DNA of 52,705 nt from IMG/VR virus record IMGVR_UViG_3300035042_000139. One strand, 5' to 3'. The position numbers and the translations under genes were made by a program. Under the pieces are notes generated by a model. It saw only the letters and a list, made by a program, of their open reading frames with translations, had not been told where the DNA came from and did no database searches. Shown here one piece after another: positions 8,329 through 43,529 of this stretch (position 1 is its first letter; every line of letters begins with the position of its first letter). The stretch is from a virus. Its lineage: Duplodnaviria > Heunggongvirae > Uroviricota > Caudoviricetes.

Positions 8329-8838
8329 ATGAAAGAAATAGAAAAGAAATTTATTGTCAGCAAAAATTATGAGCTTCCTGCTGAATATGAAAGTTATGAT
8401 ATTATGCAAAAGTATTTACACATAGACTCTATTTCTGAAATAAGAATCAGGCAAAAGCTTCATTTCAACAAGAAAGGAAAGTTTACTAAAAAAACTCAAA
8501 AGATAACTATCAAAGAAGGTAGTGGAGATACCAGAGAAGAGACAGAAATCAGTATCTCGCCATCATTATTTGATAATCTTTGGGAGGTAAACAACAGAAG
8601 GGCTATTCATAAACTCAGGTATCTAATACCATATAAGGGTAAAATTATAGAAGTTGATGAGTTTCCTTTATATGATAACTTTCCTATTTTTGCTGAAATT
8701 GAATTTGATAGTAAGGAAGAGATGGAAAATTTTGAGTTTCCATACTGGTTTGACAGGGAGACAAAAGTAAAAAACAAGGATATTTTTATGTTTATTAACA
8801 GCTATGAGGCTGATAAAGATATAAATGACATATTGTAA
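8329..8838 (+). CDS. CYTH domain protein (triphosphate tunnel metalloenzyme)
   Basis: EIEKKF, IMQKYL, IRIR, ITIK...REETE, IHKLRY, EVDEF, AEIEF. Confidence 0.88.
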   Translation: MKEIEKKFIVSKNYELPAEYESYDIMQKYLHIDSISEIRIRQKLHFNKKGKFTKKTQKITIKEGSGDTREETEISISPSLFDNLWEVNNRRAIHKLRYLIPYKGKIIEVDEFPLYDNFPIFAEIEFDSKEEMENFEFPYWFDRETKVKNKDIFMFINSYEADKDINDIL

Positions 8839-9149: not shown

Positions 9150-9216
9150 GAACAAATTTAAAGGGGTTAAAAGGCCATATTTATTATGGCCAGCAATTAT
9201 ATTTATTTTATATTAC

Positions 9217-9245
9217 TTGAAAAGTGGAGTTAAGTGTGGTATAAT
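9217..9245 (+). promoter_or_regulatory. sigmaA-type promoter upstream of the RNA array
   Basis: TTGAAA(9217-9222), 17 bp, TG at 9237-9238, TATAAT(9240-9245); first RNA starts at 9265. Confidence 0.85.
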
Positions 9246-9264
9246 AAACTTAACAGATAAACAA

Positions 9265-9410
9265 GTCATTGGTGGCGGAATAAGTAGACGCTATAATGGT
9301 AAGGCATTCGGTGGGAAACATAATAACCAGAGGGGCATATGCTTATACATTTAAAAGCAGCTTTGCAACATGCGAATGTTCATGTGAGGTGTAAATCCTC
9401 ACCCATGACA
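9265..9410 (+). ncRNA. tRNA-like RNA with a large structured insert replacing the anticodon arm
   Basis: Acceptor GTCATTGG/CCCATGAC (one mismatch), Leu-type D region TGGCGGAATAAGTAGACGC, T arm TGAGG-TGTAAAT-CCTCA (non-TTC loop), insert closed by GGCATTCG/CGAATGTT. Confidence 0.7.
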
Positions 9411-9420
9411 TTATATATAT

Positions 9421-9466
9421 GCCGGTTCGGGAAACTACAGGTTAGTTACCTGCCCTGCCGGCTCCA
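9421..9466 (+). ncRNA. 46-nt hairpin RNA ending in TCCA (minihelix-like)
   Basis: GCCGGT/GCCGGC, GGG/CCC and CAGGT/ACCTG stems, 3' TCCA. Confidence 0.55.
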
Positions 9467-9475
9467 AAATTTAAA

Positions 9476-9560
9476 GGAAGAGTGTCCGAGTGGTTTAAGG
9501 AGACAGTTTGCTAAACTGTTACCGACAGGTTCAGGGGTTCAAATCCCCTCTCTTCCTCCA
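9476..9560 (+). tRNA. tRNA-Ser(GCT)
   Basis: GGAAGAG/CTCTTCC acceptor, ACAGT-TTGCTAA-ACTGT anticodon arm, short variable arm ACC-GACA-GGT, AGGGG-TTCAAAT-CCCCT, encoded CCA; discriminator T is atypical. Confidence 0.9.
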
Positions 9561-9566
9561 TTTTTT

Positions 9567-9681
9567 CGGGAGATAGCTCAGCAGGCTAGAGCAGCTAAAA
9601 TATGTCTTGTATAAGGTATTAACAGCAATCACATCCCATTAAAGGAGCGTGTCGCAGGTTCGAATCCTGCTCTCCCGGTCA
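9567..9681 (+). ncRNA. CAGCAA-motif tRNA-like RNA 1 (Pro-like body)
   Basis: CGGGAGA/TCTCCCG acceptor, intact D and T arms; insert ATGTCTT-GTAT-AAGGTAT-T-AACAGCAA; residual TCC-CATTAAA-GGA. Confidence 0.85.
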
Positions 9682-9687
9682 TTTTTA

Positions 9688-9904
9688 GTCGCAGTGATAG
9701 TTTTTGGCAATTTAAACTATCTTCAAATAAATGCGACAGAATTAAGATTCCTCTACAAAATTGCCAGAGGGCTTAATTCAAAATTAATCTGTCAGCAACA
9801 TGTAAACAGCCTGGCTACAATATTAAAAACAAACTGCCAGGCTTAGGAAATACATGGAAACAACTGCCGAGCTCTGTGGGCTAGCTGTTGCGACGGGTTA
9901 ATTT
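9688..9904 (+). ncRNA. structured ncRNA(s): kissing-hairpin pair plus multi-stem domain
   Basis: GTCGCA/TGCGAC, GATAGTTT/AAACTATC, GAATTAAG/CTTAATTC, CCTCT/AGAGG; loops GGCAATTT and AAATTGCC are complementary; AAATTAATCTGTC/GACGGGTTAATTT encloses AGCCTGGC/GCCAGGCT. Confidence 0.75.
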
Positions 9905-9906
9905 AC

Positions 9907-10025
9907 GGTGAGGTAGCCAAGATGGAAAGGCTCCGGCGCAAAAAGAAAGTGTGACTAGTTTAGTCACCAACAGCAATTCTTCTATGTCAAGCCGGGATTC
10001 GCGGGTTCAACTCCCGTCCTCACCA
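9907..10025 (+). ncRNA. CAGCAA-motif tRNA-like RNA 2 (Asp-like)
   Basis: GGTGAGG/CCTCACC acceptor; anticodon stem CCGGC/GCCGG enclosing GTGACTA-GTT-TAGTCAC-C-AACAGCAA and residual AT-GTC-AA; T arm GCGGG-TTCAACT-CCCGT. Confidence 0.85.
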
Positions 10026-10037
10026 ATTACAATTTTT

Positions 10038-10155
10038 CGAAGGGTAGCTCAACTGGTAGAGCAGCTAAAATATATGCTTAGTTTTAAGCGTTAACAGCAA
10101 TCAATTTTCCTTGAGGAGGAGCTTGCTGCAGGTTCAAATCCTGCCCCTTCGACCA
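10038..10155 (+). ncRNA. CAGCAA-motif tRNA-like RNA 3 (Pro-like body, GAG loop)
   Basis: CGAAGGG/CCCTTCG-A-CCA; insert ATGCTTA-GTTT-TAAGCGT-T-AACAGCAA; residual TCC-TTGAGGA-GGA. Confidence 0.85.
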
Positions 10156-10163
10156 TTTTTTAA

Positions 10164-10286
10164 GGAGAGATTCTCCTAATGGCAAAGGTACCGGCCAAAA
10201 TATGTTTAGATTAAACATCAACAGCAAAAAAAGTGAAAAGCCGGCGGTCGATGACCATGGTGGTTCGAATCCACCACTCTCCACCA
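10164..10286 (+). ncRNA. CAGCAA-motif tRNA-like RNA 4 (Ser-like body)
   Basis: GGAGAG/CTCTCC-A-CCA; CCGGC/GCCGG enclosing ATGTTTA-GAT-TAAACAT-C-AACAGCAA...GTGAAAA; variable arm GGTC-GAT-GACC; T arm GGTGG-TTCGAAT-CCACC. Confidence 0.85.
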
Positions 10287-10323
10287 ACTTTAGGAATTAA
10301 AGATTAATTTTTTGTAATTTTTA

Positions 10324-10402
10324 AAGACGGCACACAGCAACCAAACTATTATATAATAAAAGACGAATAAGGCTGACACTTTTTTATCCCTGAGCCGTCT
10401 TG
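10324..10402 (+). ncRNA. stand-alone CAGCAA stem-loop unit A
   Basis: AAGACGGC-ACA-CAGCAA...GCCGTCTT-G; weak internal AAGG-CTGACAC-TTTT hairpin. Confidence 0.8.
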
Positions 10403-10433
10403 TTATTTAGACTTAGAACTTAGATAGATTACA

Positions 10434-10568
10434 TACTGTCGGACTGACAGGAATTTACGCTTTTGGAGAGAGCATAAGACCTAACTTAATCTGATTAAAT
10501 AATTAGCTTTAAGTAGGCAATTCTCGTTGAAAAAAGAATCCCCGCAGGCTTGCCTCGGGGTAGGTCAA
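10434..10568 (+). mobile_element. orphan IS200/IS605-family right end / TnpB omegaRNA scaffold
   Basis: CTGTC-GGACT-GACAG hairpin, GGAATTTACGCTTTTGGAGA, GAAT directly before subterminal hairpin CCCCGCAGG-CTTG-CCTCGGGG, terminal TCAA; no tnpA/tnpB adjacent. Confidence 0.75.
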
Positions 10569-10684
10569 TAAAGGGCGATATCTTGGTGTCAGTTTATCTT
10601 TATGATTTTGTTCATTATAATATATTCTTTCGAACTTGCCGGTGCTTTTAAACCCGGTTAATTTTGTATAAAGAGGTGTAAAAT

Positions 10685-11506
10685 TTGTTTATAGCAGAGA
10701 TTGGTATTAATCATAATGGAAATTTAGAATATGCATATGATTTAATAGATATGGCTTATAAAGCTGGAGCAGATGTTGTTAAATTCCAGAAAAGAAATCC
10801 AAATAAATGTGTACCTGAAAACCAGTGGTATAAAAAGAAAGAAACACCGTGGGGCAAGATGGATTATATTGACTATAAGCACAAGATGGAGTTTGGTTAT
10901 AGTGAATATACAGCAATTAATGCTTACTGTAAAAAACTTGGGATAAAATGGACTGCAAGTGTTTGGGATGTCCAATCACTTAATTTTATAACTGAATTTG
11001 ATGTGCCTTTTATAAAGATTGCAAGTGCCTCAATCACGAATATGTTACTCCTGGAAGAAATCTGGGAAAAAGACATTCCTGTAGTTATGTCAACTGGAAT
11101 GAGTACAGAAGATGAAGTAGATAGGGCAGTATATACACTAGAAGAATTGGGAAAGAACTTAACAATTTTGCACTGCAACAGTAGTTATCCTGCAGCAGAA
11201 GATGAACTGGATTTAAATGTAATAAAAACTTTAAAAAATAAATATACAAAACATAAAATAGGCTACAGTGGACATGAAAGAGGAATTCAACCGACAATAG
11301 CAGCTAAAGTTTTAGGAGCTGAGATAATTGAAAGACATATCACTCTAGATAAGGATATGTGGGGCAGCGACCACAGTGCAAGTCTAGAATACAAAGAGCT
11401 AAAAGAGCTTATCGACAATCTTAACAGAGTTGATAACTGGCTCGGGAGTGATAATATTAAAGTTTATGAATCTGAAGAAAAAGTAAAAGAAAAACTTAGA
11501 AAATAA
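10685..11506 (+). CDS. N-acetylneuraminate synthase family protein (NeuB/SpsE), TIM barrel only
   Basis: IAEIGINHNG, ADVVKFQKR, IKIASA, MSTGMST, LHCNSSYP, GYSGHE, IERHITLD..MWGSDHSASLE; lacks the C-terminal SAF/AFP domain. Confidence 0.93.
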   Translation: MFIAEIGINHNGNLEYAYDLIDMAYKAGADVVKFQKRNPNKCVPENQWYKKKETPWGKMDYIDYKHKMEFGYSEYTAINAYCKKLGIKWTASVWDVQSLNFITEFDVPFIKIASASITNMLLLEEIWEKDIPVVMSTGMSTEDEVDRAVYTLEELGKNLTILHCNSSYPAAEDELDLNVIKTLKNKYTKHKIGYSGHERGIQPTIAAKVLGAEIIERHITLDKDMWGSDHSASLEYKELKELIDNLNRVDNWLGSDNIKVYESEEKVKEKLRK

Positions 11507-11514
11507 AAATCTTA

Positions 11515-11579
11515 AAGGCGCCAACAGCAAACTTACTAAATCAAACTTCCAATTTGAATCCAATAGTAATGGTGCCTTG
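11515..11579 (+). ncRNA. stand-alone CAGCAA stem-loop unit B carrying a Gly(TCC)-type anticodon stem-loop
   Basis: AAGGCGCC-AA-CAGCAA...GGTGCCTT-G; internal TTACTA/TAGTAA enclosing TCAAA-CTTCCAA-TTTGA. Confidence 0.85.
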
Positions 11580-11586
11580 TATATAT

Positions 11587-11716
11587 GGCAGTATAGCTCA
11601 ACTGGTAGAGAGCTCAAAAGTTAACGGGCATAGGCCGGCGGGCCCTTACAGCAAACTACAACTAACAATTCTATGTCAAAGAAAAGACGCAGGTTCAAAT
11701 CCTGCTGCTGCCACCA
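11587..11716 (+). ncRNA. CAGCAA-motif tRNA-like RNA 5 (GTC loop)
   Basis: GGCAGTA/TGCTGCC-A-CCA, D region TAGCTCAACTGGTAGAG, insert GGGC..GCCC-TTA-CAGCAA, TTCT-ATGTCAA-AGAA, T arm GCAGG-TTCAAAT-CCTGC. Confidence 0.85.
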
Positions 11717-11758
11717 TTAGCCGGCTTTAATTTACTAACCAACACTCCTTTCAAATTA

Positions 11759-11827
11759 AAGACAGATGCAGCAACCAATTCTTATATCAAGGTATGATAA
11801 AACCCGCGAAATGCGGATACTGTCTTG
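11759..11827 (+). ncRNA. stand-alone CAGCAA stem-loop unit C
   Basis: AAGACAG-ATG-CAGCAA...CTGTCTT-G; internal TATCA/TGATA and CCGC/GCGG hairpins. Confidence 0.8.
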
Positions 11828-11850
11828 TAGTAAAGTCTTAGGAAAATTTT

Positions 11851-11906
11851 TAGGCACAATCAGCAATCAAATCAAGGACTGTAAATCCAACAAAATATGT
11901 GCCTAG
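11851..11906 (+). ncRNA. stand-alone CAGCAA stem-loop unit D carrying a Tyr(GTA)-type anticodon stem-loop
   Basis: TAGGCACA-AT-CAGCAA...TGTGCCTA-G; internal GGA-CTGTAAA-TCC. Confidence 0.85.
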
Positions 11907-11933
11907 TATAAAAATAAAAGGGGGATTATTAAT

Positions 11934-13439
11934 ATGTCAAATAAATTTTTAGACGCAATGGAAGATAAAGTTAATTACACAGCAACAGAAAATGGTGCAA
12001 CAGCAAAATATACAACTAAGGATAACCTACTCGATTTCTTTGCTCAGGTAGGAGCCTTAAGAAACAGAAATAAAGAAGATATTATAAGGCTTTTTGACAA
12101 GGCCTTAACAGAAGATGACCTTCTAGCATTAAAAACTCTTTTTTATGCCAGAAATATCAGGGGTGGGCTAGGAGAAAGAAGAATATTTAGAGTTATTCTA
12201 AAATATCTGACACAGGTAAAACCTGAAATAATTCTAAAAAACTTAGAACACATACCTCATTATGGTAGATGGGACGATTTATATGCCTTATTTGATACAA
12301 GACTTGAAGGCTATGCAGCAAACTTTATGAAAGCCCAGTTCTTTAAGGATATCAATTCTGAAAAACCAAGCCTATTAGCAAAATGGCTTAAATCAGAAAA
12401 TGCAAGCTCTGACGAAACAAAAAGACTTGCCAAAAAAACCAGAAAACATTTTGAGATGACAGCAAGAGGATATAGAAAAACACTTTCTAAGCTAAGAAAG
12501 AAAATAGGTGTTGTCGAAAGAAAAATGTCGAATAATGACTGGGAAGATATTGACTACTCATCTGTTCCTTCAAGAGCGCAGATGATTTACAATAATGCTT
12601 TTGAAAGACATGACCCTGAAGGCTACCATCAATACATTGAAAATGTTAAATCGGGAGAGGATAAAATTAATGCTTCAACATTATATCCTTATGATTTAGT
12701 AAGAAAAGTTATCGGTGATGGTTGGGGCCATTCAGTTTCTGAAAGTGAGAGAAACGTTTTAAATGAGCAGTGGAAAGCATTACCTGATTATATCAATGAT
12801 AAAAATGAAAACTCTATTTGTGTTGTAGATACTTCAGGTTCTATGATGAGCTCAGATGGATTACCGCTTCATATTGCACTTTCATTAGGGCTTTATATGG
12901 CAGAAAGAAACTCGGGGCCATTTAAAGATAGGTTTATTACCTTCTCTGCCAGTCCTGATTTAGTAAAAGTAGAAGGCAGTGATTTTGTACAGAAAATTAA
13001 AAACATGAAAAGAGCTCATTGGGATATGAACACCGATATCGAAGCTGTATTTAATCTTATTTTAGATACTGCAATCGAAAACCATCTCGACCAGGACGAG
13101 ATACCTCAGAAATTATATATTATTTCTGATATGGAATTTGACCAGTGTACAGGTAGGGGTTATGGATTTAATTCACAAAATAAAGTAACTAAAACACTTT
13201 TTGAAAAGTTAAAAGAATCATTCAAACATTATGGCTACAAAATGCCGGATTTAGTCTTCTGGAATGTTGAAGCAAGAAATGAAGTTTTTCAGTTTGACAA
13301 AGACGAGAGAGGATTTCAGCTTGTAAGTGGAGCTTCTCCAGTTGTTTTTGAGCACACAATGAAAGGTGAGTTTGTTTCCGCCTACGACTTGATGCTCGAT
13401 GTAATCACAGACGAACAGTACGATAGAATTACAGTTTAA
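11934..13439 (+). CDS. DUF2828-family protein (TROVE/Ro60-like helical domain plus C-terminal vWA domain)
   Basis: TENGA, LDFF, ARNIRGGLGER, YGRWDDL, AKWL, VPSRA, LYPY; MIDAS VVDTSGSM, FITFS, ISDMEFD, VFWN, VSGAS. Confidence 0.85.
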   Translation: MSNKFLDAMEDKVNYTATENGATAKYTTKDNLLDFFAQVGALRNRNKEDIIRLFDKALTEDDLLALKTLFYARNIRGGLGERRIFRVILKYLTQVKPEIILKNLEHIPHYGRWDDLYALFDTRLEGYAANFMKAQFFKDINSEKPSLLAKWLKSENASSDETKRLAKKTRKHFEMTARGYRKTLSKLRKKIGVVERKMSNNDWEDIDYSSVPSRAQMIYNNAFERHDPEGYHQYIENVKSGEDKINASTLYPYDLVRKVIGDGWGHSVSESERNVLNEQWKALPDYINDKNENSICVVDTSGSMMSSDGLPLHIALSLGLYMAERNSGPFKDRFITFSASPDLVKVEGSDFVQKIKNMKRAHWDMNTDIEAVFNLILDTAIENHLDQDEIPQKLYIISDMEFDQCTGRGYGFNSQNKVTKTLFEKLKESFKHYGYKMPDLVFWNVEARNEVFQFDKDERGFQLVSGASPVVFEHTMKGEFVSAYDLMLDVITDEQYDRITV

Positions 13440-13959: not shown

Positions 13960-14877
13960 ATGGATAAAGATAAGTTAGAGGAATTAAGAGAATACAATAA
14001 AATTTATATTTTAGGCAGTAGTAGCAATCAAGAAATTACAGATTATAAAGAGGATGAAATTGTAATTGAAGAAAAAATTGACGGCAGTAACTTCAGGTTC
14101 TGGAGAGAAGGAGATAGGATTGTATATAGTTCACGGAAAACTGAGGATGTCAGACCTCGTGATGGATGGGGCAAACAGATTGAATACCTAAATGAAAAGC
14201 TTGATGTAAATGCTCTTGGCAGAGATATTATTTATGTCGGAGAGGCAATGAAAAAACACATAGTAAATTATGATTTTGATAATTACCCATCATTTATAGG
14301 GTTTGACCTTCTGGATAAAGAAACTGGGATGCCACTTGATTATAAGGTTGCCAGAGATACTTTTGAAAGTTTGGGTTTAGAATTTGTAAATATCTTATTT
14401 GAGGGAACAATGGAAGAATATCTTGAGATGGACAAAGATAAACTTTTAGAAATTTCTAAGTACAATTCAAAAAAGCCTGAAGGTTATGTTATTAAAAACT
14501 ACAGCAGGTTAAGCCAGTACGATGAGCCTCTATTTGCCAAAGTTTTAAATGATGAGTATTTGGAAAGACAAAAAGCTAAAGCTAAAAAGCCAAAGCCTAA
14601 AGAAACAGACACTCCTTTAGCAGTTGAGCTTTATGTAAATGAGGCGAGAATTAAAAAGATGATAGCTAAAATGGTTGTTGATGAAGGACATAAACTTGAA
14701 AGAACGCTAATGCATAAGCTTATCCCGAGAGTTATCAAGGATTTTTTAAGAGAAAATATTCTTGAAATCTATGAGGATAATAGAATAAAAGATGTAAACT
14801 TTAATATTCTACACAAAGAAGTTCCAAAAAGATGTATTAAAGTTTTGGATAAGATGATTGAAAGTAATGCATTCTAA
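13960..14877 (+). CDS. ATP-dependent RNA ligase (Rnl2-like nucleotidyltransferase)
   Basis: Motif I EEKIDGSN, Ia YSSRK, III YVGE, IIIa FIGFD, IV PEGYVIK, V FAK. Confidence 0.85.
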   Translation: MDKDKLEELREYNKIYILGSSSNQEITDYKEDEIVIEEKIDGSNFRFWREGDRIVYSSRKTEDVRPRDGWGKQIEYLNEKLDVNALGRDIIYVGEAMKKHIVNYDFDNYPSFIGFDLLDKETGMPLDYKVARDTFESLGLEFVNILFEGTMEEYLEMDKDKLLEISKYNSKKPEGYVIKNYSRLSQYDEPLFAKVLNDEYLERQKAKAKKPKPKETDTPLAVELYVNEARIKKMIAKMVVDEGHKLERTLMHKLIPRVIKDFLRENILEIYEDNRIKDVNFNILHKEVPKRCIKVLDKMIESNAF

Positions 14878-28400: not shown

Positions 28401-30354
28401 CAACAAAGATTTGGATATCCACCCAAAGCTAAAGAGATTTATTGATAATAATCAAGAAATGGTTGAGGAAGAGCTTGAAATGGAAGTAGACCATATCGAT
28501 AATAACAGTCGCTTTGAAAGAATAATTATTGCTGCCGATAATTTATTAGAAGAATACCACTCATCTGGAGAACTTGCTGGTTATTAATATTTAAAAGGAG
28601 GGTTACAATGGACTTTAAAAAAGAATTAGAACTTTTAAGGTGGCTGGCCCAGGGGGTCAGCTTAAAAAAGGGAGAATTTTCTAAAGGGCTTACTTTCGAC
28701 AATATAAATAGCTCAATTGCTGATTATATCAATCATTACTATAGTATTGGTGCTAAATCTGAAACGAGAGAGTGGGAATGTTCTAAAGTAAAAACAACAC
28801 AACATGATGAAAAAATATATTTAGATATTCCATCTGACCATTATGGTGCCTATGAAAAAAGTTATTTCATGCCTTTAAGAGAATTTATTTATGATTATCA
28901 TGAAAGAATAATTGAGGATATTATGGAAGAAAACAATCTTTTTCAGGAAAAATACTATGAAATGCTTGAAGATGGAATTTTAGATGATGAAATTGACCTA
29001 CAGGAACCATACGAACTATATTTAATCGAAAAATTTGCCAGTGACTACATTGACTATCTAACAAAGTGGGGCGATATTCATATCCTGATTGAACAAAAAA
29101 GAAAAATCAAATCAGGGTGGATGAATTATTTTAAGGAGTGATTTGATGCTTGACTATAATAAAAAAGCAAGGGAAAAAATCAAAGAAAAAATAAATTACT
29201 TTGACGATGAAGAAGAAAAAATAATTGACTGTATGTTAATTGATTACGGACATCAGTTTTTAGATGAAATAAGCCAATATGCAAGAACAACTACCTGGAT
29301 GGCTGACACCGAGTCAGTAATGAAAGAGGATATAATAAACGACGAAATAGATGGTTTAGATGACCTAATTGTTACTTTTGAGGAAGGCTGGCAGGAAACA
29401 GATAATTTTAGGTTTAAAGTTTACCTTCCCGTTTGTCATAAAATATCAGATGCAGCAAATCAGGTGTTTGGAAAAAATGTTGACTCAGAATACAAGTCTC
29501 TCACTATTTCAGAGATGACATTTGAAGTGATTCAGGAGTTTTTCTGGGAACCCTACCACGAACATCATAACAGCTATGATATAGCTCGCAAAATATTAAA
29601 GGAGAGTGTAACTGAATGATTGAATATAAAAGTCGAGAATATTGTAAAGATACTGGGTGTTTAGCTTATAAAAACCCAAAGTTATTTGGTATAGATGACG
29701 ACATTACTTTAAGTGATTACTGTAATTATATTAATGAATGTCATGCATATAAATTTCATAAATGGCTGCAAAAAAATGACTATAAAATAGTTAAGTCAAA
29801 AATTTTAACTGAACATCAGGAAATGGATTCTGAATTTGAAGGTATATCTGAAATGATAGAATTTAGACCAGAAAATGCCCCTATTAAAGTTTTGAATAAT
29901 TTGTTAGATGATATTAAGGATATAGCCGATACTAATTATGGCAAATGGAGGGATGTATAAAATGAAAACCAAAAAGTTTGATGATATATTTTACAGAGAT
30001 AAACTTGCTGATGAGATAGCAAATTCTAGAATTGAAATGAGCGGAGATGACCATGAAGAAGGTTCAAATTTATGGGGTGTAGAAATTCTTGTTGACGGAG
30101 CTTTGGGACAGTTTAAAACACAGGCTCTACTTGATATTTTCACAGAAGAAGGACTGACAGAAGAAGAATATAAAAAAGACACCTTTAAATACATGGACGA
30201 GTGGACTTTATATATCAGACAGGATGTTGAAGAAATGCTCAATGAAGAAATGTCTGAACACTTAGAAGAAGAGGAGTTTCTTGTTTTAGAACCGGGAGAT
30301 TCAGGAGATATGTGGATAGCATTACAGAAAGGTGATTTTAATGTACACTTTTAA
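25423..30354 (+). CDS. run of eleven mostly acidic hypothetical proteins
   Basis: 25423-25869, 25881-26504, 26516-26785, 26798-27406, 27423-27806, 27782-28054, 28069-28587, 28608-29141, 29143-29619, 29616-29960, about 29962-30354; mostly with GGAG(G) RBS. Confidence 0.75.
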
Positions 30355-31597
30355 TGGTTTATATACAGGCTTGCCTGTTAAAGTCTGGATTGATGAAAGT
30401 GAAGATTTAGATGATAACACATTTAAAGAAGCAGTAGAAATATCAAAGCTCCCATACGCTAAATCACACATAGCATTGATGCCTGATGTACACGCTACGG
30501 GCTACCATATGCCAGTTGGCGGGGTTTTAGCTACAAAGGATGTTATAGTACCTGATGCAGTCTCGAACGATATAGGGTGCGGTGTCGCCTTTATACAGAC
30601 AGATATTGAGGCCTGCTTTATGCAAACAACACACATGGATTCAGGAACAGTTGCTCAGGAACTGGTTGGGTCAATCATGAGAGATTTACCAACAGGATTT
30701 CAGCACTGCAAAAAAGAAGAAAACAAAGATAACATGGAGCTTCTAAATCTAATTAATAATTTAAACTATGGTGGAGATATTGAAGAAAAACCTCTTTTAA
30801 TGGAAGCTGTCATGGAGTCTATGGAAATTGTTGGAAGTCTAGGAGGTGGCAACCACTTCGTTGAGCTGCAGGAAAACAAAGAGGGTAATCTTGCAATTAT
30901 GATTCACACCGGCTCCAGAAGTGTTGGCGCTAAAATAAACTCTCATTTTAGTAAGTTAGCAAAAAGTTTAAATAAAAAATGGTATGTTGATGTTTTATCT
31001 GATGATGTAACAATGCCCTTTTTACCACTCGATAGTGATGAGGGTCAGGAATATATGAAATTCATGAATTTTGCCTTAAAAGTTGCTGAGTTAAATAGAG
31101 ATAAAATTATGGATTTAGTTCTAAATAAGACTATTGATTTACTTAAAAAAAGAGGTCTTATTGATGATTATAAAATTACAAGAAGATTAAATGTCCACCA
31201 CAATTATGCTGCCTATGAAAATGTGAACGGTGTTAACTACATGGTGCATAGAAAGGGTGCTGTGAGGGCCAGAAAAAGCGATATAGTGCCTATTCCGGGG
31301 GCGATGGGTTCATCTTCCTTTATTGCTCAGGGTCTCGGTAATGATGCTTCCTTTAAGTCCTGTAGCCACGGAGCTGGAAGAACTCACACCAGAACTGCAG
31401 CCAAAGAAGAATATTCTGTTCAGGAAGTTATGGAAGATTTAAAAGAAAAGAATGTTGTGCTCGGCAAAACAAATAAAAAAGATGTGGCTGAAGAGTATAT
31501 GAAAGCCTACAAGGATATTCATCAGGTTATGCAAAACCAGAAAGATTTGGTATCCGTGATTGATGAACTAAAGACTATTGCGGTTATCAAAGGTTAG
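30341..31597 (+). CDS. rtcB: RtcB RNA-splicing/repair ligase
   Basis: MPDVH, PVGGV, DIGCG, GSLGGGNHFVE, HTGSR, HHNYA, HRKGA, IPGAMG, SHGAGR, AYKDI, IKG. Confidence 0.96.
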   Translation: MYTFNGLYTGLPVKVWIDESEDLDDNTFKEAVEISKLPYAKSHIALMPDVHATGYHMPVGGVLATKDVIVPDAVSNDIGCGVAFIQTDIEACFMQTTHMDSGTVAQELVGSIMRDLPTGFQHCKKEENKDNMELLNLINNLNYGGDIEEKPLLMEAVMESMEIVGSLGGGNHFVELQENKEGNLAIMIHTGSRSVGAKINSHFSKLAKSLNKKWYVDVLSDDVTMPFLPLDSDEGQEYMKFMNFALKVAELNRDKIMDLVLNKTIDLLKKRGLIDDYKITRRLNVHHNYAAYENVNGVNYMVHRKGAVRARKSDIVPIPGAMGSSSFIAQGLGNDASFKSCSHGAGRTHTRTAAKEEYSVQEVMEDLKEKNVVLGKTNKKDVAEEYMKAYKDIHQVMQNQKDLVSVIDELKTIAVIKG

Positions 31598-40700: not shown

Positions 40701-43529
40701 ATGGAGGTGCAAATATTGAATTTAACACTTGATTTAAACAAGAAACAAAAAGAAGCAGTTTTGCACGATAAGGGGCCGTCACTTGTTGTTGCCGGGGCTG
40801 GTAGTGGAAAAACAAGAGTTATAACATATCGTATAGCAAGACTTATTAAAGAAGGTATTTTTCCTTCTGAAATCCTAACTGTAACCTTTACAAATAAGGC
40901 AGCAAGCGAGATGGAAGATAGAGTAAAAAAGATTGTAGACTGTGATATATCAAGCATGTGGATTGGGACTTTTCACTCAATGTGTTTGAAAATCTTAAGC
41001 GAGAACTTAGATAAGATAGGCTACAAACCAAACTACCTCATATATGACACTGATGACTCTGTAAAAATAGTAAACGATATCATAAACTCAATGGGGCTTG
41101 ATGATAAAGTCTATGAGGATAAAAAAGTATTCTTTAAAATAACAGAAGCTAAAAGAAACTTAATATCATTTGCTAATTATCTGCAAAAGCTTGGTAGAGA
41201 GCCTTTTGAAAGAGATAGGTATATCCAGAAGATATACAAGGAATATTATAAAAGGTTAAAGAAAAATAATGCCTTTGACTTTACTGACCTGATAACAAAA
41301 ACAATTTATCTGTTTAGAAAATATCCTGAAGTTTTAGAACACTATCAAAATAAATTTAAGTATATTCAGTGTGATGAGTATCAAGACACAAATCACAGTC
41401 AGTATATAATACTTAAGATGCTGGCAGATAAACACAAAAATATTATGGCCGTAGGTGATTCCGACCAGTGCCAACCACCAAATACCGAAGTCTTAACTAC
41501 TAAAGGTTACAAAAAAATCAAAGACTTAGAGCCTGGTGTTGACAAGGTTCCTAGCTATGACAGGCGTGGTTCTTATGTAATTGGATTAAGTGATGATTAT
41601 GGTTACGAAATTAAAAAAGGTATGAGAAATTACAAAGGCAAAATGTATGAAATAGAAACTGAAGATGGCAAAATATCTAAATCAACTTATAACCATAAAT
41701 GGCTTGTTAAGTGGACAAATAAATCTACTAACTATAATGTAGTCTACTTGATGCAAAAAGATGACAAATTTAGAGTAGGATGGTGTCAATTATTTAAAGC
41801 AGATGGGGGATTTCATTTAGAAGTTAGGTCAAGAATCGAAAAAGCAGATAAAGCATGGATTTTAAAGGTTGTAAAAACTAAAAAAGAAGCATTTGCCTGG
41901 GAAAGTATTATTGCTAGCAGGTATGGAATTCCACAATTAACTTTTCAGGAAACAAATGACGGAGCGACTAATGGTTATTTAACAAAAGAAGTAATAAGTT
42001 CTGTTTATGAAAACTTATCATATGAAAGACTTTATAAAAATGCAAAAAAATGCCTCAAAGACCACGACAGAGAAATAGAATTTCCATTTTTTGACGTTGA
42101 AAATGTTTACCAAAGACGTGGCGGAAAATCTATTATAAAAATAAAAGCATGCAATTTTATTCCAGAACTTATGAAAGTTCCAGTCCATATTAAAGGAAAG
42201 AAGACAGAGTGGAAAAAAATAAAAAAGCTTAGAATTTATGATTATGATGGACCTGTTTATAGTTTAAATGTTGATAAATATCACAAATATATAGCGGATG
42301 GAATTGTAACCTGCAATAGTATTTATGGATTTAGGGGTTCTGATATCCAGAATATAATAGATTTTGAAAAAGAGTATAAAAATGTAAATATAATAAAACT
42401 TGAAAGAAATTATAGAAGTACATCTAATATTATAGAAGCCTCAAATGAGGTAGTTAAAAACAATGAAAAAAGAAGAGAAAAGGTTGCTTTCACTAAAGCT
42501 AAGCCCGGGTTTCCTATAGTTATAGCTGAAACATTTGACTCATATAAAGAGGCTGACTTTATAGTCAATACAATCAAAACTCTTACAGATGCAAATAATT
42601 ATGACTATAAAGATATTACACTTCTTTATAGAAGTAATTATCAGTCGCAGAATTTCGAAACAGCTTTTGTTAATGCAGGAATACCTTACACAGTTGTTAA
42701 AGGTACAGGGTTTTTTGATAGAAAAGAAATAAAAGACCTTCTAGCATTTATTAGATTGACTGCAAATGTTGAAGACTCTCCAAGTTTAAATAGGATTATA
42801 AACCTAGAGAGTAACGGTATAGGTCCTGTAACTGTAGCGAAAATGCTTGAACACAGCTACAACACAATGCTTCCTCTGATAGATGTTGTTAAATCTCCAT
42901 CATCTGTTAATGGTATAGGAAAAGTAAAGGGAGAGGCAGTATTAAAAATGTTTGATGAATATTTAAAGCCTATTATAGAGATTAGGGAAGAAGACCTCGG
43001 ATTGCAGGAAACAATACTAAAAATCTACGAAGATGTTCATTTTGAAGATATATTACTACAAGACGAAGAAACTTATGAAAACAAAATGAAGAATATAGAG
43101 GCATTTTTTGATTTTGTTAATAACTATGTCGAGAAAAATTCCAACGATGATTCACTTGTAGACTTTCTGCAGAATGTAAAGCTTATAAGTGACCAAGACC
43201 AGCTCGACCAGGACTCAGATAAGGTTAAATTAATGACTGTACATGGAGCCAAAGGTTTAGAATTCCCTATAGTTTTCATGGTTGGGATGGAAGAAGAGAC
43301 ATTCCCTCACAAGTTCTCACTTGAAGAGCCTGACGGAGAGGAAGAGGAAAGAAGATTATGCTATGTAGCTATGACAAGAGCTGAAGAAAGATTGTTTCTT
43401 ACCTACTGCAAGAGAAGATTTCAGTTCTATCAGTTTGTAGATAAAAAGCCTTCAAGGTTTATAGATGAAATACCTATGAAGTATTCAAAGTTTATGATTT
43501 ATAGTGACAAAAGTAAGAAGGCTATTTAG
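40701..43529 (+). CDS. UvrD/PcrA SF1 helicase with intein
   Basis: AGAGSGKT, TFTNKAA, DEYQDT, VGDSDQ|SIYGFRG, NYRS, MTVHGAKGLEF, EERRLCYVAMTRA. Confidence 0.96.
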   Translation: MEVQILNLTLDLNKKQKEAVLHDKGPSLVVAGAGSGKTRVITYRIARLIKEGIFPSEILTVTFTNKAASEMEDRVKKIVDCDISSMWIGTFHSMCLKILSENLDKIGYKPNYLIYDTDDSVKIVNDIINSMGLDDKVYEDKKVFFKITEAKRNLISFANYLQKLGREPFERDRYIQKIYKEYYKRLKKNNAFDFTDLITKTIYLFRKYPEVLEHYQNKFKYIQCDEYQDTNHSQYIILKMLADKHKNIMAVGDSDQCQPPNTEVLTTKGYKKIKDLEPGVDKVPSYDRRGSYVIGLSDDYGYEIKKGMRNYKGKMYEIETEDGKISKSTYNHKWLVKWTNKSTNYNVVYLMQKDDKFRVGWCQLFKADGGFHLEVRSRIEKADKAWILKVVKTKKEAFAWESIIASRYGIPQLTFQETNDGATNGYLTKEVISSVYENLSYERLYKNAKKCLKDHDREIEFPFFDVENVYQRRGGKSIIKIKACNFIPELMKVPVHIKGKKTEWKKIKKLRIYDYDGPVYSLNVDKYHKYIADGIVTCNSIYGFRGSDIQNIIDFEKEYKNVNIIKLERNYRSTSNIIEASNEVVKNNEKRREKVAFTKAKPGFPIVIAETFDSYKEADFIVNTIKTLTDANNYDYKDITLLYRSNYQSQNFETAFVNAGIPYTVVKGTGFFDRKEIKDLLAFIRLTANVEDSPSLNRIINLESNGIGPVTVAKMLEHSYNTMLPLIDVVKSPSSVNGIGKVKGEAVLKMFDEYLKPIIEIREEDLGLQETILKIYEDVHFEDILLQDEETYENKMKNIEAFFDFVNNYVEKNSNDDSLVDFLQNVKLISDQDQLDQDSDKVKLMTVHGAKGLEFPIVFMVGMEEETFPHKFSLEEPDGEEEERRLCYVAMTRAEERLFLTYCKRRFQFYQFVDKKPSRFIDEIPMKYSKFMIYSDKSKKAI
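41469..42317 (+). mobile_element. intein (283 aa) in helicase motif III
   Basis: Begins CQPPNTEV, has block B STYNHKW, ends VYSLNV...YIADGIVTCN before +1 Ser; removal restores GDSDQSIYGFRG. Confidence 0.93.

What the first reader, a model, noticed from the sequence alone, without database searches (positions are those of the whole stretch)
9567..11716. Five different tRNA bodies each carry the same insert 5' of a retained anticodon-like loop
Pro-like (twice), Asp-like, Ser-like and a fifth body keep acceptor, D and T arms, and three keep CCA. Each has a roughly 35-55 nt insert (A-rich linker, hairpin, ACAGCAA, linker) on the 5' side of the anticodon arm. Retained 7-nt loops: CA-TTA-AA (9637), AT-GTC-AA (9984), TT-GAG-GA (10111), GT-GAA-AA (10233), AT-GTC-AA (11673). 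In units 1 and 3, precise removal of the insert would rebuild a GCTCC/GGAGC anticodon stem. They are either permanent mimics or a new tiny intron/latent-tRNA type excised and sealed by the phage ligases. Loop and body identities mostly disagree, which favours mimics.
Basis: partly seen in the sequence, partly recalled or inferred. Interest (0 to 1): 0.85.

Follow-up and report, generated by a model that had tools for sequence, protein, structure and literature searches.

The report
tRNA-shaped RNAs with Ro60-type handle
Five tRNA-shaped genes in this large phage each carry a conserved side arm (a 7-bp hairpin followed by ACAGCAA) that is most likely a kept docking handle for the Ro60-shaped protein encoded next door, not an intron, so they belong to a widespread and apparently undescribed relative of the Ro60/Y-RNA particles.

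Summary
Five tRNA bodies (9567-9681, 9907-10028, 10038-10155, 10164-10286, 11587-11716) each carry a 37-54 nt insert 5' of a 7-nt anticodon-like loop, at exactly the loop coordinates given. Four inserts are a perfect 7-bp hairpin, 2 nt, then ACAGCAA.

The same handle closes five further small RNAs in the window, two of which hold a bare anticodon stem-loop. It also sits in 48 distinct tRNA bodies from other phages in IMG/VR.

The handle tracks one protein, DUF2828/DUF7788, at 11934-13439:
- 24 of 26 handle-tRNA phage records encode it, against 0 of 18 control records.
- The RNA lies within 1.5 kb of the gene in 21 of 23 records.
- All 5 loci chosen by the protein alone carry handle RNAs.
- The predicted fold matches Ro60 over its full length.

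Splicing is disfavoured:
- The insert position varies relative to both the tRNA body and the motif.
- Loop and body identities disagree (4 of 41 agree, against 46-66% for normal phage tRNAs).
- Most complete phages carrying these RNAs lack RtcB and the PF09414 ligase.
- In other phages the handle forms the RNA ends around a tRNA shape whose acceptor stem is closed by a loop.

No transcript data were available. This scan has already noted the handle on other DNA (23 notes, at least 18 genomes). I found no published description.

The parts
9217..9245 (+). Sigma-70-like promoter (TTGAAA, 17 nt, TATAAT with TG) upstream of the RNA array
   Evidence: 11 of 12 consensus match, the best in the region. 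Consensus match only; function inferred.
9476..9560 (+). Ordinary tRNA-Ser(GCT), first recognisable gene of the array (context)
   Evidence: ARAGORN; Rfam tRNA 57.4 bits.
9567..9681 (+). U1: tRNA body with a 38-nt insert at 9597-9634 between anticodon-stem positions 29 and 30. Hairpin 9602-9619, ACAGCAA 9622-9628, loop CATTAAA 9637-9643 (A at position 33, anticodon UUA). No encoded CCA.
   Evidence: Rfam tRNA 43.7 bits with a 49-nt gap; fold; 7-bp hairpin at offset 2; in-silico removal gives an ARAGORN tRNA with anticodon tta.
9907..10028 (+). U2: tRNA body with a 46-nt insert at 9938-9983 between positions 31 and 32. Hairpin 9951-9967, ACAGCAA 9970-9976, loop ATGTCAA 9984-9990 (GUC). No encoded CCA.
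   Evidence: Rfam tRNA 44.3 bits with intact CCGGC/GCCGG stem around a 53-nt loop; fold z -3.7.
10038..10155 (+). U3: tRNA body (paralogue of U1) with a 42-nt insert at 10067-10108 between positions 29 and 30. Hairpin 10074-10091, ACAGCAA 10094-10100, loop TTGAGGA 10111-10117 (GAG, a Leu anticodon on a short-variable-loop body). ACCA encoded.
   Evidence: Rfam tRNA 47.4 bits.
10164..10286 (+). U4: class II (long variable arm) tRNA body with a 37-nt insert at 10196-10232 between positions 31 and 32. Hairpin 10202-10218, ACAGCAA 10221-10227, loop GTGAAAA 10233-10239 (GAA, a Phe anticodon). ACCA encoded.
   Evidence: Not hit by Rfam. Fold shows acceptor, T arm, variable arm and handle hairpin. 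ARAGORN calls an 86-nt tRNA after in-silico removal. 0 of 24 normal phage tRNA-Phe are class II.
11587..11716 (+). U5: tRNA body with an insert of about 54 nt at 11615-11668 between the D arm and a 4-bp anticodon-like stem. GC hairpin 11626-11645, ACAGCAA 11648-11654, loop ATGTCAA 11673-11679. ACCA encoded.
   Evidence: Rfam tRNA 43.2 bits with a 71-nt gap. In the 203-kb relative G001 the loop reads GTA instead of GTC, while changes in the T and acceptor stems keep pairing.
9781..9904 (+). M1: free-standing module. An 11-bp closing stem, then TCAGCAA, then structured cargo.
   Evidence: Closing stem found; fold z -5.4.
10324..10401 (+). M2: free-standing module. An 8-bp closing stem, 2 nt, ACAGCAA, cargo.
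11515..11578 (+). M3: free-standing module whose cargo is a 5-bp stem with the 7-nt loop CTTCCAA (UCC, Gly-like anticodon arm).
   Evidence: 100% identical in G001.
11759..11826 (+). M4: free-standing module. A 7-bp closing stem, 2 nt, GCAGCAA, two small hairpins.
11850..11906 (+). M5: free-standing module (9-bp closing stem, TCAGCAA) whose cargo is GGA-CTGTAAA-TCC, a tRNA-Tyr-type anticodon arm.
   Evidence: and direct reading.
11934..13439 (+). DUF2828/DUF7788 protein (501 aa), a helical-repeat ring plus vWA domain, Ro60-shaped. Proposed partner of the handle.
   Evidence: Pfam. AF2 pLDDT 86, pTM 0.86. The ten best Foldseek PDB hits are all Ro60 or Rsr, full length, TM 0.29-0.57, 0.48 or higher for nine of them. 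No Pfam match other than DUF2828 and DUF7788 at E <= 0.001 and no PDB match by sequence.
13960..14877 (+). RNA ligase (PF09414), context
30332..31597 (+). RtcB RNA ligase, context

Best explanation
U1-U5 are stable, unspliced, tRNA-shaped small RNAs. They are transcribed with the neighbouring tRNA-Ser and released by ordinary tRNA end-processing.

Each carries a conserved handle as a side arm: a roughly 7-bp helix of any sequence, 2 nt (usually UA), then single-stranded ACAGCAA. The arm is joined by flexible A/U-rich linkers on the 5' side of the anticodon arm.

The handle docks the RNA on the Ro60-shaped DUF2828/DUF7788 protein encoded 0.2-2.4 kb downstream, as Y RNAs dock on Ro60. The L-shaped body and the exposed anticodon-like loop then act as bait or adaptor for proteins that recognise tRNAs. 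In a phage that also carries RtcB and an Rnl-type ligase, the likeliest clients are host tRNA-cutting defence nucleases (decoy or sensor role) or tRNA repair and quality-control enzymes.

Shown here: the anatomy, the family-wide conservation and covariation of the handle, its two-way genomic linkage to DUF2828, the Ro60-like predicted fold, and the loop/body mismatch.

Inferred: physical binding, absence of splicing, and the downstream client.
For: 1. The handle is real and under selection. In 32 tRNA-embedded ACAGCAA sites chosen without looking at the hairpin, 19 have 7 of 7 pairs at the fixed register, against 2% in shuffles (p about 1e-24). There are 28 different stem sequences.

2. Linkage to DUF2828 holds both ways. 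24 of 26 handle-tRNA records carry it against 0 of 18 chance-hit records (Fisher p = 1.8e-10), and 9 of 9 records that are at least 90% complete. The RNA lies within 1.5 kb of the gene in 21 of 23 records. Starting from the protein, 5 of 5 DUF2828 loci have 2-6 handle modules on the gene's strand, with at least two starting within 400 nt of the gene in each. These include a contig whose gene neighbours carry Pfam families YonK and YonJ_CC, a Paenibacillus contig and a relative at 26% identity.

3. In the 203-kb relative, ACAGCAA is dense only beside this gene, with 10 copies in 3.6 kb.

4. The protein is Ro60-shaped.

5. The handle is a kept part of mature-looking RNAs elsewhere. In the window it forms the closing stem of M1-M5. 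In other phages it forms the termini of circularly permuted tRNA shapes whose acceptor stem is closed by a small loop, for example L096, L103 and L126. Some tRNA bodies have the handle and no anticodon arm at all, for example L044 and L062.

6. Loops and bodies disagree. Nearest-neighbour isotype agreement is 4 of 41, against 46-66% for 549 normal phage tRNAs from the same loci. Loops with a Ser anticodon sit on class I bodies, 0 of 3 distinct RNAs (one more is a near-identical copy) against 48 of 50 normal tRNA-Ser (p = 4e-4). U3 puts a Leu anticodon on a class I body and U4 a Phe anticodon on a class II body.

7. U5's anticodon differs (GTC versus GTA) between two close relatives whose aligned 1.5-kb stretch is 90% identical, while stem pairing is kept. 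The relative also has ordinary tRNA-Asp(GTC) and tRNA-Tyr(GTA).
Against: - No RNA or binding data exist. Everything rests on sequence and a predicted fold.
- In-silico removal of the insert gives an ARAGORN-recognisable tRNA in 41 of 45 cases, with T at position 33 in 34 of 45 and A or G at position 37 in 41 of 45. An intron would also predict this. My junction search was optimised for pairing, which inflates those counts.
- These five units keep free acceptor ends, three with CCA, so charging is not excluded.
- This phage does encode RtcB and an RNA ligase.
- The control records in the association test are mostly shorter fragments than the positives.
- U5's hairpin is weak.
- Foldseek TM-scores to Ro60 are moderate (mostly 0.54-0.57) and there is no sequence-level match to TROVE.
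Confidence: 0.62

Rival explanations
1. The inserts are a new kind of small protein-excised intron. An unidentified endonuclease recognises the hairpin-ACAGCAA element, cuts at both junctions, and RtcB or an Rnl ligase seals the exons to give working, possibly latent or recoding, tRNAs.
For: Precise removal rebuilds a 5-bp stem and 7-nt loop in U1-U4 and in 41 of 45 relatives. Acceptor ends are free and three of five encode CCA. RtcB and an RNA ligase are encoded in the window. In archaea and one red alga a single splice motif serves both introns and permuted tRNA genes (general knowledge), so permuted relatives alone do not exclude splicing.
Against: - The junction sits after stem nucleotide 1, 2, 3, 4 or 5, or before the stem, and the linkers on either side of the handle vary from 5-14 and 3-21 nt. 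Neither a ruler from the motif nor one from the body gives the cut sites.
- The two linkers pair no more than shuffles (mean longest run 3.6 versus 3.4), so there is no bulge-helix-bulge-like closure.
- No tRNA-intron endonuclease domain is found in the 203-kb relative.
- RtcB is in 4 of 26 records (1 of 9 at least 90% complete) and PF09414 ligase in 6 of 26 (3 of 9). Five of the nine have neither.
- The products would be mis-matched tRNAs: a UUA anticodon with A at position 33 in a genome whose ORFs read through normally under code 11, Leu on a class I body, Phe on a class II body.
- Permuted relatives have acceptor stems closed by tetraloops, and some relatives have no anticodon arm.
- No insert-free or spliced copy was found. 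This is a null result and carries little weight.
Confidence: 0.1
2. The handle is an RNA processing, stability or expression signal of the DUF2828 operon, read by a host or phage RNase or another factor. The linkage reflects co-transcription, not binding to DUF2828.
For: Modules lie directly upstream of, on the same strand as, and probably in the same transcript as the gene. No binding data exist.
Against: Up to ten copies per phage, with diverse tRNA-like cargo, is unlike a cis signal for one gene. In some records (G008, G017) the RNA lies 7-34 kb from the gene. The protein is Ro60-shaped, and Ro60 proteins are known to bind RNAs encoded next to them.
Confidence: 0.12
3. They are decaying tRNA pseudogenes hit by a small mobile repeat.
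For: The insert recurs in different tRNA bodies. An IS605-type tnpB gene sits in the array of the relative G001.
Against: - Copies share only ACAGCAA and the helix geometry, not the stem sequence; 28 different stems all pair.
- All tRNA arms stay paired, with pair-preserving changes between relatives.
- The RNA genes are 97-100% identical between window and G001, while the NeuB gene between them has many more substitutions.
- The insert is always on the 5' side of the anticodon arm and always beside DUF2828.
Confidence: 0.03

Closest known systems
YrlA-type Y RNAs with bacterial and phage Ro60/Rsr (Rfam RF02553; Chen et al. 2014, PMC4201824; Thermus phage phiLo Ro60 with Yrl1/Yrl2, PMC12135203)
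   Same: Small RNAs encoded next to a ring-shaped helical-repeat plus vWA protein. One module docks on the protein and another imitates tRNA (T arm, D arm, acceptor-like stem). They are often found in an RNA-repair context with RtcB. They occur in phages.
   Different: - The protein is DUF2828/DUF7788, with no Pfam match beyond those two families at E <= 0.001 and no sequence match to solved Ro60.
- The docking module is a 7-bp helix plus unpaired ACAGCAA, not the bulged Ro-binding stem.
- In these five RNAs it is an internal side arm of an unpermuted tRNA with free acceptor ends and a full anticodon-like loop.
- The YrlA model scores only 24.7 bits against a cut-off of 69, on a stretch that merely spans the T arm of U2 and the D arm of U3.
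Intron-containing tRNA genes: bacterial group I introns in the anticodon loop, and archaeal/eukaryal bulge-helix-bulge introns cut by EndA/TSEN and sealed by RtcB (PMC4090602)
   Same: An insert in the anticodon arm whose precise removal restores a cloverleaf. RtcB is encoded in the same genome.
   Different: The inserts are 37-54 nt, far below group I size, with no Rfam intron or ribozyme hit. There is no bulge-helix-bulge pairing and no fixed position. No EndA domain is found. The insert carries a conserved motif tied to a Ro60-like protein.
Class I RNAs of dictyostelid amoebae (Kjellin et al. 2021, PMC7919456)
   Same: A short stem of variable sequence joins the RNA ends, followed directly by a conserved unpaired 11-nt motif, then variable cargo, which is the architecture of M2-M5 here. 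The paper gives invariant T, C, C, A, A at motif positions 3, 6, 9, 10 and 11. That fits CCTTACAGCAA, as present in U5. The full 11-mer is from my memory, not from the text.
   Different: These are eukaryotic RNAs reported as unique to Dictyostelia, whose known binder is the RRM protein Rnp1A. No Rfam family other than tRNA scores at or above its gathering cut-off in this region; I did not confirm that a Class I model is in the library. Whether amoebae pair these RNAs with a DUF2828 protein was not tested. The unpermuted tRNA-embedded form has no counterpart there.

Membership tests
tRNA (RF00005), functional decoder | Cloverleaf with acceptor, D and T arms scoring above the Rfam cut-off | tested here: met
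   U1, U2, U3 and U5 score 43-47 bits against a cut-off of 29. U4 is not hit.
tRNA (RF00005), functional decoder | Contiguous 5-bp anticodon stem with 7-nt loop | tested here: not met
   A block of 49-71 nt is left unaligned in the anticodon arm by the Rfam model, corresponding to inserts of 37-54 nt. ARAGORN finds none of the five.
tRNA (RF00005), functional decoder | Anticodon matches the identity class of the body | tested here: not met
   U3 has a Leu anticodon on a class I body and U4 a Phe anticodon on a class II body. U1 has UUA with A at position 33. Family-wide agreement is 4 of 41, against 46-66% in normal phage tRNAs.
tRNA (RF00005), functional decoder | Aminoacylation and use on the ribosome | not testable with these tools
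   Needs charging assays or tRNA sequencing.
YrlA / Y RNA (RF02553) | Match to the covariance model at the gathering score | tested here: not met
   Best score is 24.7 bits against 69, on an inter-unit stretch.
YrlA / Y RNA (RF02553) | Encoded beside a Ro60 (TROVE) protein gene | tested here: inconclusive
   The gene beside them is DUF2828/DUF7788. It has no Pfam match beyond those two families at E <= 0.001, but its predicted fold matches Ro60 over the full length.
YrlA / Y RNA (RF02553) | tRNA-like domain | tested here: met
YrlA / Y RNA (RF02553) | Ro-binding stem formed by the 5' and 3' ends | tested here: not met
   In U1-U5 the ends form a tRNA acceptor stem and the conserved module is an internal hairpin plus ACAGCAA.
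Bulge-helix-bulge tRNA intron | Two 3-nt bulges separated by a 4-bp helix at the junctions, with an EndA-type endonuclease | tested here: not met
   Linkers pair no better than shuffles. The junction position varies. PF01974 is absent from the relative G001.
Group I intron in tRNA | Catalytic core of about 200 nt or more, matching Rfam Intron_gpI | tested here: not met
   The inserts are 37-54 nt, with no such hit at E <= 10.
Handle RNAs of DUF2828 (provisional class from this scan) | Helix of about 7 bp, 1-3 nt, then ACAGCAA, on the strand of and near a DUF2828 gene | tested here: met
   U1-U4 fit exactly and U5 fits with a 4-bp helix. The gene is at 11934-13439. Family linkage is shown.
Handle RNAs of DUF2828 (provisional class from this scan) | Physical binding of the handle to the protein | not testable with these tools
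   Needs RIP-seq, gel-shift or a structure.
Ro60 / TROVE protein family (for the neighbour gene) | HEAT-like helical ring plus C-terminal vWA domain | tested here: met
   AF2 model with pLDDT 86. Foldseek ranks 1-10 are Ro60 or Rsr chains, 520-590 aligned columns, probability 1.0.
Ro60 / TROVE protein family (for the neighbour gene) | Sequence match to the TROVE domain | tested here: not met
   Only DUF2828 and DUF7788 are reported. There is no PDB sequence hit.

The most novel reading that the evidence does not exclude
The five units are latent tRNAs. The handle holds them inactive on the DUF2828 ring. When host nucleases cut tRNAs during infection, an unknown endonuclease removes the handle and RtcB or Rnl seals the exons. 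This releases non-standard decoders, such as a Ser-type body reading Phe codons or a UUA reader, that reprogram or rescue translation. It would be a protein-dependent tRNA splicing pathway in a bacteriophage.
Probability: 0.07. Interest if true: 0.95.

Novelty: new variant of a known kind. Interest (0 to 1): 0.66.

Why it matters
Ro60 and its Y RNAs are a conserved but poorly understood RNA-surveillance particle.

If the reading is right, a second and much larger family of Ro60-shaped proteins has its own RNA partners. DUF2828 gave at least 7,999 relatives at E <= 1e-5 in one capped search. The partners share a simple, searchable handle and come as true tRNA shapes, inside-out tRNA shapes and bare anticodon arms.

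That gives a concrete, testable entry into three questions: what tRNA mimicry by Y-like RNAs is for, how phages deal with tRNA-targeting defences, and how to annotate hundreds of "broken tRNA" genes in phage genomes. The shared stem-plus-ACAGCAA signature with amoebal Class I RNAs is a further lead.

Tried and rejected
- **Known RNA families.** Rfam at gathering threshold and at E <= 10 over 9150-11950 gave only tRNA hits above cut-off. There was no ribozyme, intron or YrlA match.
- **YrlA hit at 9999-10062.** Rejected as an artefact of a T arm followed by the next unit's D arm. The two acceptor strands do not pair.
- **Similar DNA in the phage GenBank collection.** None found.
- **Spliced or insert-free copies.** Nothing in IMG/VR for the U1/U3 body, and nothing in JGI metagenome contigs for spliced U2 or for a spliced common Val-type relative. 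These are nulls of little weight.
- **Pairing between the two linkers as an intron-closing helix.** No better than shuffles.
- **Phage RtcB or Rnl as obligate partners.** Rejected on distribution.
- **EndA-type endonuclease.** Absent from G001.
- **ACAGCAA as a genome-wide signal.** Most copies outside the array are chance hits in coding sequence on the A-rich coding strand.
- **Literature.** Five papers mention DUF2828, none about phages or RNA. Burroughs and Aravind 2016, which may discuss this protein family, is not held. Searching the text for the motif was useless.
- **Crude hairpin enrichment.** A count over all ACAGCAA sites in about 1 Mb of loci was uninformative (13% against 8-12% for control words). 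I replaced it with the context-restricted test.


Full report
**What is there**

The window looks like part of a large phage. Nearly all long ORFs are on the + strand, and it encodes SSB, RecA, UvrD with an intein, an SNF2 helicase, PhoH, RtcB and an RNA ligase. Its nearest held record, G001, is a 203.6-kb IMG/VR contig with terminal repeats.

Between 9.2 and 11.9 kb lies an array of small RNA genes behind a strong sigma-70-like promoter at 9217-9245. ARAGORN finds only tRNA-Ser(GCT) at 9476-9560. The Rfam tRNA model also scores four more bodies at 43-47 bits, each with a 49-71 nt block it cannot align in the anticodon arm. The fifth body (U4) has a long variable arm and is recognised only after the insert is removed in silico.

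Folds keep the acceptor and T arms.

**The insert**

In U1-U4 the insert has four parts: an A-rich linker, a perfect 7-bp hairpin ending exactly 2 nt before ACAGCAA, the ACAGCAA word, and a short linker. A 7-bp hairpin in that register occurs at 1.6% of window positions, so four of five gives p about 4e-7. U5 has a shorter GC hairpin.

The same word, preceded by the 5' strand of a 7-11 bp stem whose partner lies 31-95 nt downstream, closes five further RNAs, M1-M5. This is the same helix-plus-ACAGCAA unit with its ends placed differently. In M1-M5 the far end of the helix is the RNA's termini. In U1-U5 that end is closed by a loop and the termini are the tRNA acceptor stem. M3 and M5 carry nothing but a canonical-looking anticodon arm, with loops CU-UCC-AA and CU-GUA-AA.

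**A family**

Among them I found 48 distinct tRNA bodies with a hairpin-ACAGCAA insert.

To avoid circularity I re-selected 32 sites using only the acceptor, D and T arms. Of these, 19 have 7 of 7 pairs at the fixed register and 27 have at least 6, against 2% and 17% in shuffles. The stems have 28 different sequences, so the helix is kept by covariation while ACAGCAA is invariant.

In other phages the handle forms the two ends of complete, circularly permuted tRNA shapes. The order is handle strand, ACAGCAA, anticodon arm, T arm, an acceptor stem closed by a small loop, D arm, handle strand (for example L096, L103, L126). A few tRNA bodies have the handle in place of the anticodon arm (L044, L062).

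**The partner**

U5, M4 and M5 lie directly upstream of a 501-aa DUF2828/DUF7788 protein.

- DUF2828 is present in 24 of 26 records that hold a handle-tRNA. The two exceptions are 64% and 5% complete. It is in 9 of 9 records that are at least 90% complete.
- It is in 0 of 18 records that matched the search pattern by chance (Fisher p = 1.8e-10). The controls are mostly shorter fragments, which weakens this comparison.
- The RNA lies within 1.5 kb of the gene in 21 of 23 records.
- In the reverse direction I chose five DUF2828 loci by protein similarity alone. They include a contig whose gene neighbours carry Pfam families YonK and YonJ_CC, a Paenibacillus contig and a relative at 26% identity. 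All five have 2-6 handle modules on the gene's strand, at least two of them starting within 400 nt of the gene.
- In G001, ACAGCAA is dense only in this array.

An AlphaFold model built on 40 homologues (pLDDT 86, pTM 0.86) is a helical-repeat domain followed by a vWA domain. Its ten best Foldseek matches in the PDB are all Ro60 proteins: Xenopus, human, Deinococcus Rsr and Thermus phage phiLo. The alignments are full length, with TM 0.48-0.57 for nine of the ten and 0.29 for Deinococcus Rsr. The protein has no Pfam match beyond DUF2828 and DUF7788 at E <= 0.001 and no PDB match by sequence.

Ro60 proteins are known to bind Y RNAs encoded next to them. [quoted passage not shown]

**Intron or handle?**

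My junction search was optimised for pairing, which inflates that count. Seven observations argue against splicing.

1. The junction falls at different stem positions: after nucleotide 5 (15 cases), 3 (12), 2 (12), 1 (4) or 4 (2). The linkers vary from 5-14 nt and 3-21 nt. No ruler from the motif or from the body would define the cuts.
2. The two linkers pair no more than shuffled versions, so there is no closing helix of the bulge-helix-bulge kind.
3. No tRNA-intron endonuclease domain is present in G001.
4. RtcB is in 4 of 26 records and the PF09414 ligase in 6 of 26. Five of nine records that are at least 90% complete have neither.
5. The products would be odd tRNAs. U1 has A at position 33 and a UUA anticodon, while the phage's ORFs read through normally under code 11. 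U3 puts a Leu anticodon on a class I body and U4 a Phe anticodon on a class II body. Family-wide, the loop's isotype matches the nearest normal tRNA body in 4 of 41 cases, against 46-66% for 549 normal phage tRNAs. Loops with a Ser anticodon sit on short-arm bodies, while 48 of 50 normal tRNA-Ser are long-arm.
6. U5 reads GTC here and GTA in G001, while stem changes keep pairing. G001 already has ordinary tRNA-Asp(GTC) and tRNA-Tyr(GTA).
7. In the permuted and stem-loop-only relatives the handle is the end of the RNA and cannot be an intron.

Searches for spliced or insert-free copies found nothing, but that is a weak null.

**Mechanism proposed**

The units are processed like tRNAs and keep their side arm, and the arm docks on the DUF2828 ring. 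The tRNA shape, with its well-kept 7-nt loop (T at position 33 in 34 of 45, A at position 37 in 38 of 45), is presented to proteins that read tRNAs.

Because relatives with closed acceptor stems cannot be charged, the family's shared function cannot depend on aminoacylation. Candidate clients are anticodon nucleases of host defence (decoy or sensor role) and tRNA repair or modification enzymes. The window's RtcB and Rnl fit that theme but are not general partners. Binding, lack of splicing and the client are all inferences.

**Novelty**

The general kind, a Ro60-like ring with a tRNA-mimicking partner RNA, is known. The protein family, the handle and this unpermuted tRNA-embedded layout are not described in anything I could find. 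One relevant review is not held.

The stem-plus-ACAGCAA signature resembles the dictyostelid Class I RNAs. No Rfam family other than tRNA reaches its cut-off here; I did not confirm that a Class I model is in the library.

This scan has already flagged the handle on other DNA: 23 notes in at least 18 genomes, plus sister notes on this same window. I re-tested the central claims independently here.

Noticed in passing
window 10402-10590; L001:286-1505 (G001): G001 has a 1.2-kb insertion between M2 and window position about 10407. Its ORF starts MIKKFKPINKAYKFRIYPN..., which looks like an IS605-type TnpB. The window lacks the gene but keeps the downstream sequence, possibly the element's right end or guide-RNA remnant. 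I did not run it against Pfam.
   Followed up: partly
window 10685-11506 versus L001: The NeuB-family gene inside the RNA array carries many more substitutions between window and G001 (the whole 1.5-kb alignment is 90% identical) than the flanking small RNA genes, which are 97-100% identical. This suggests either strong constraint on the RNAs or a mosaic history.
   Followed up: partly
window 9250-9475 and 9682-9780: There are further structured stretches in the array without ACAGCAA. One is a 6-bp hairpin with loop TGTAAAT around 9386-9404 inside a GGCATAT...ATATGCC closing stem. Another is a GTCGCA...TGCGAC stem at about 9690-9735. No Rfam match.
   Followed up: no
window 40701-43529: The UvrD-type helicase gene (942 aa) contains an intein-like insert (Pfam Intein_splicing, residues 305-539).
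   Followed up: no
L096, L103, L105, L126, L129 (IMG/VR loci): These loci hold complete circularly permuted tRNA shapes. The order is handle strand, ACAGCAA, anticodon arm (Lys, Ile, Arg and other anticodons), T arm, acceptor stem closed by a 4-5 nt loop, D arm, handle strand. They often sit directly after ordinary tRNA genes.
   Followed up: partly
L136 (ENA scaffold), L138 (Paenibacillus contig): DUF2828 genes with flanking handle RNAs lie near anti-defence-type genes: an Acb2/Tad1-like hairpin protein and an Apyc1-like anti-Pycsar nuclease. This hints at a counter-defence neighbourhood.
   Followed up: no
window 8329-8838: A sister note calls the gene upstream of the array a CYTH protein. 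Pfam gave no match at E <= 0.001 for this ORF. A CYTH gene does lie upstream of DUF2828 in L140.
   Followed up: partly
window, whole: 22 of 23 ACAGCAA copies are on the + strand. Outside 9.6-12.0 kb they lie in coding sequence without the hairpin or closing stem, and reflect the A-rich coding strand.
   Followed up: yes
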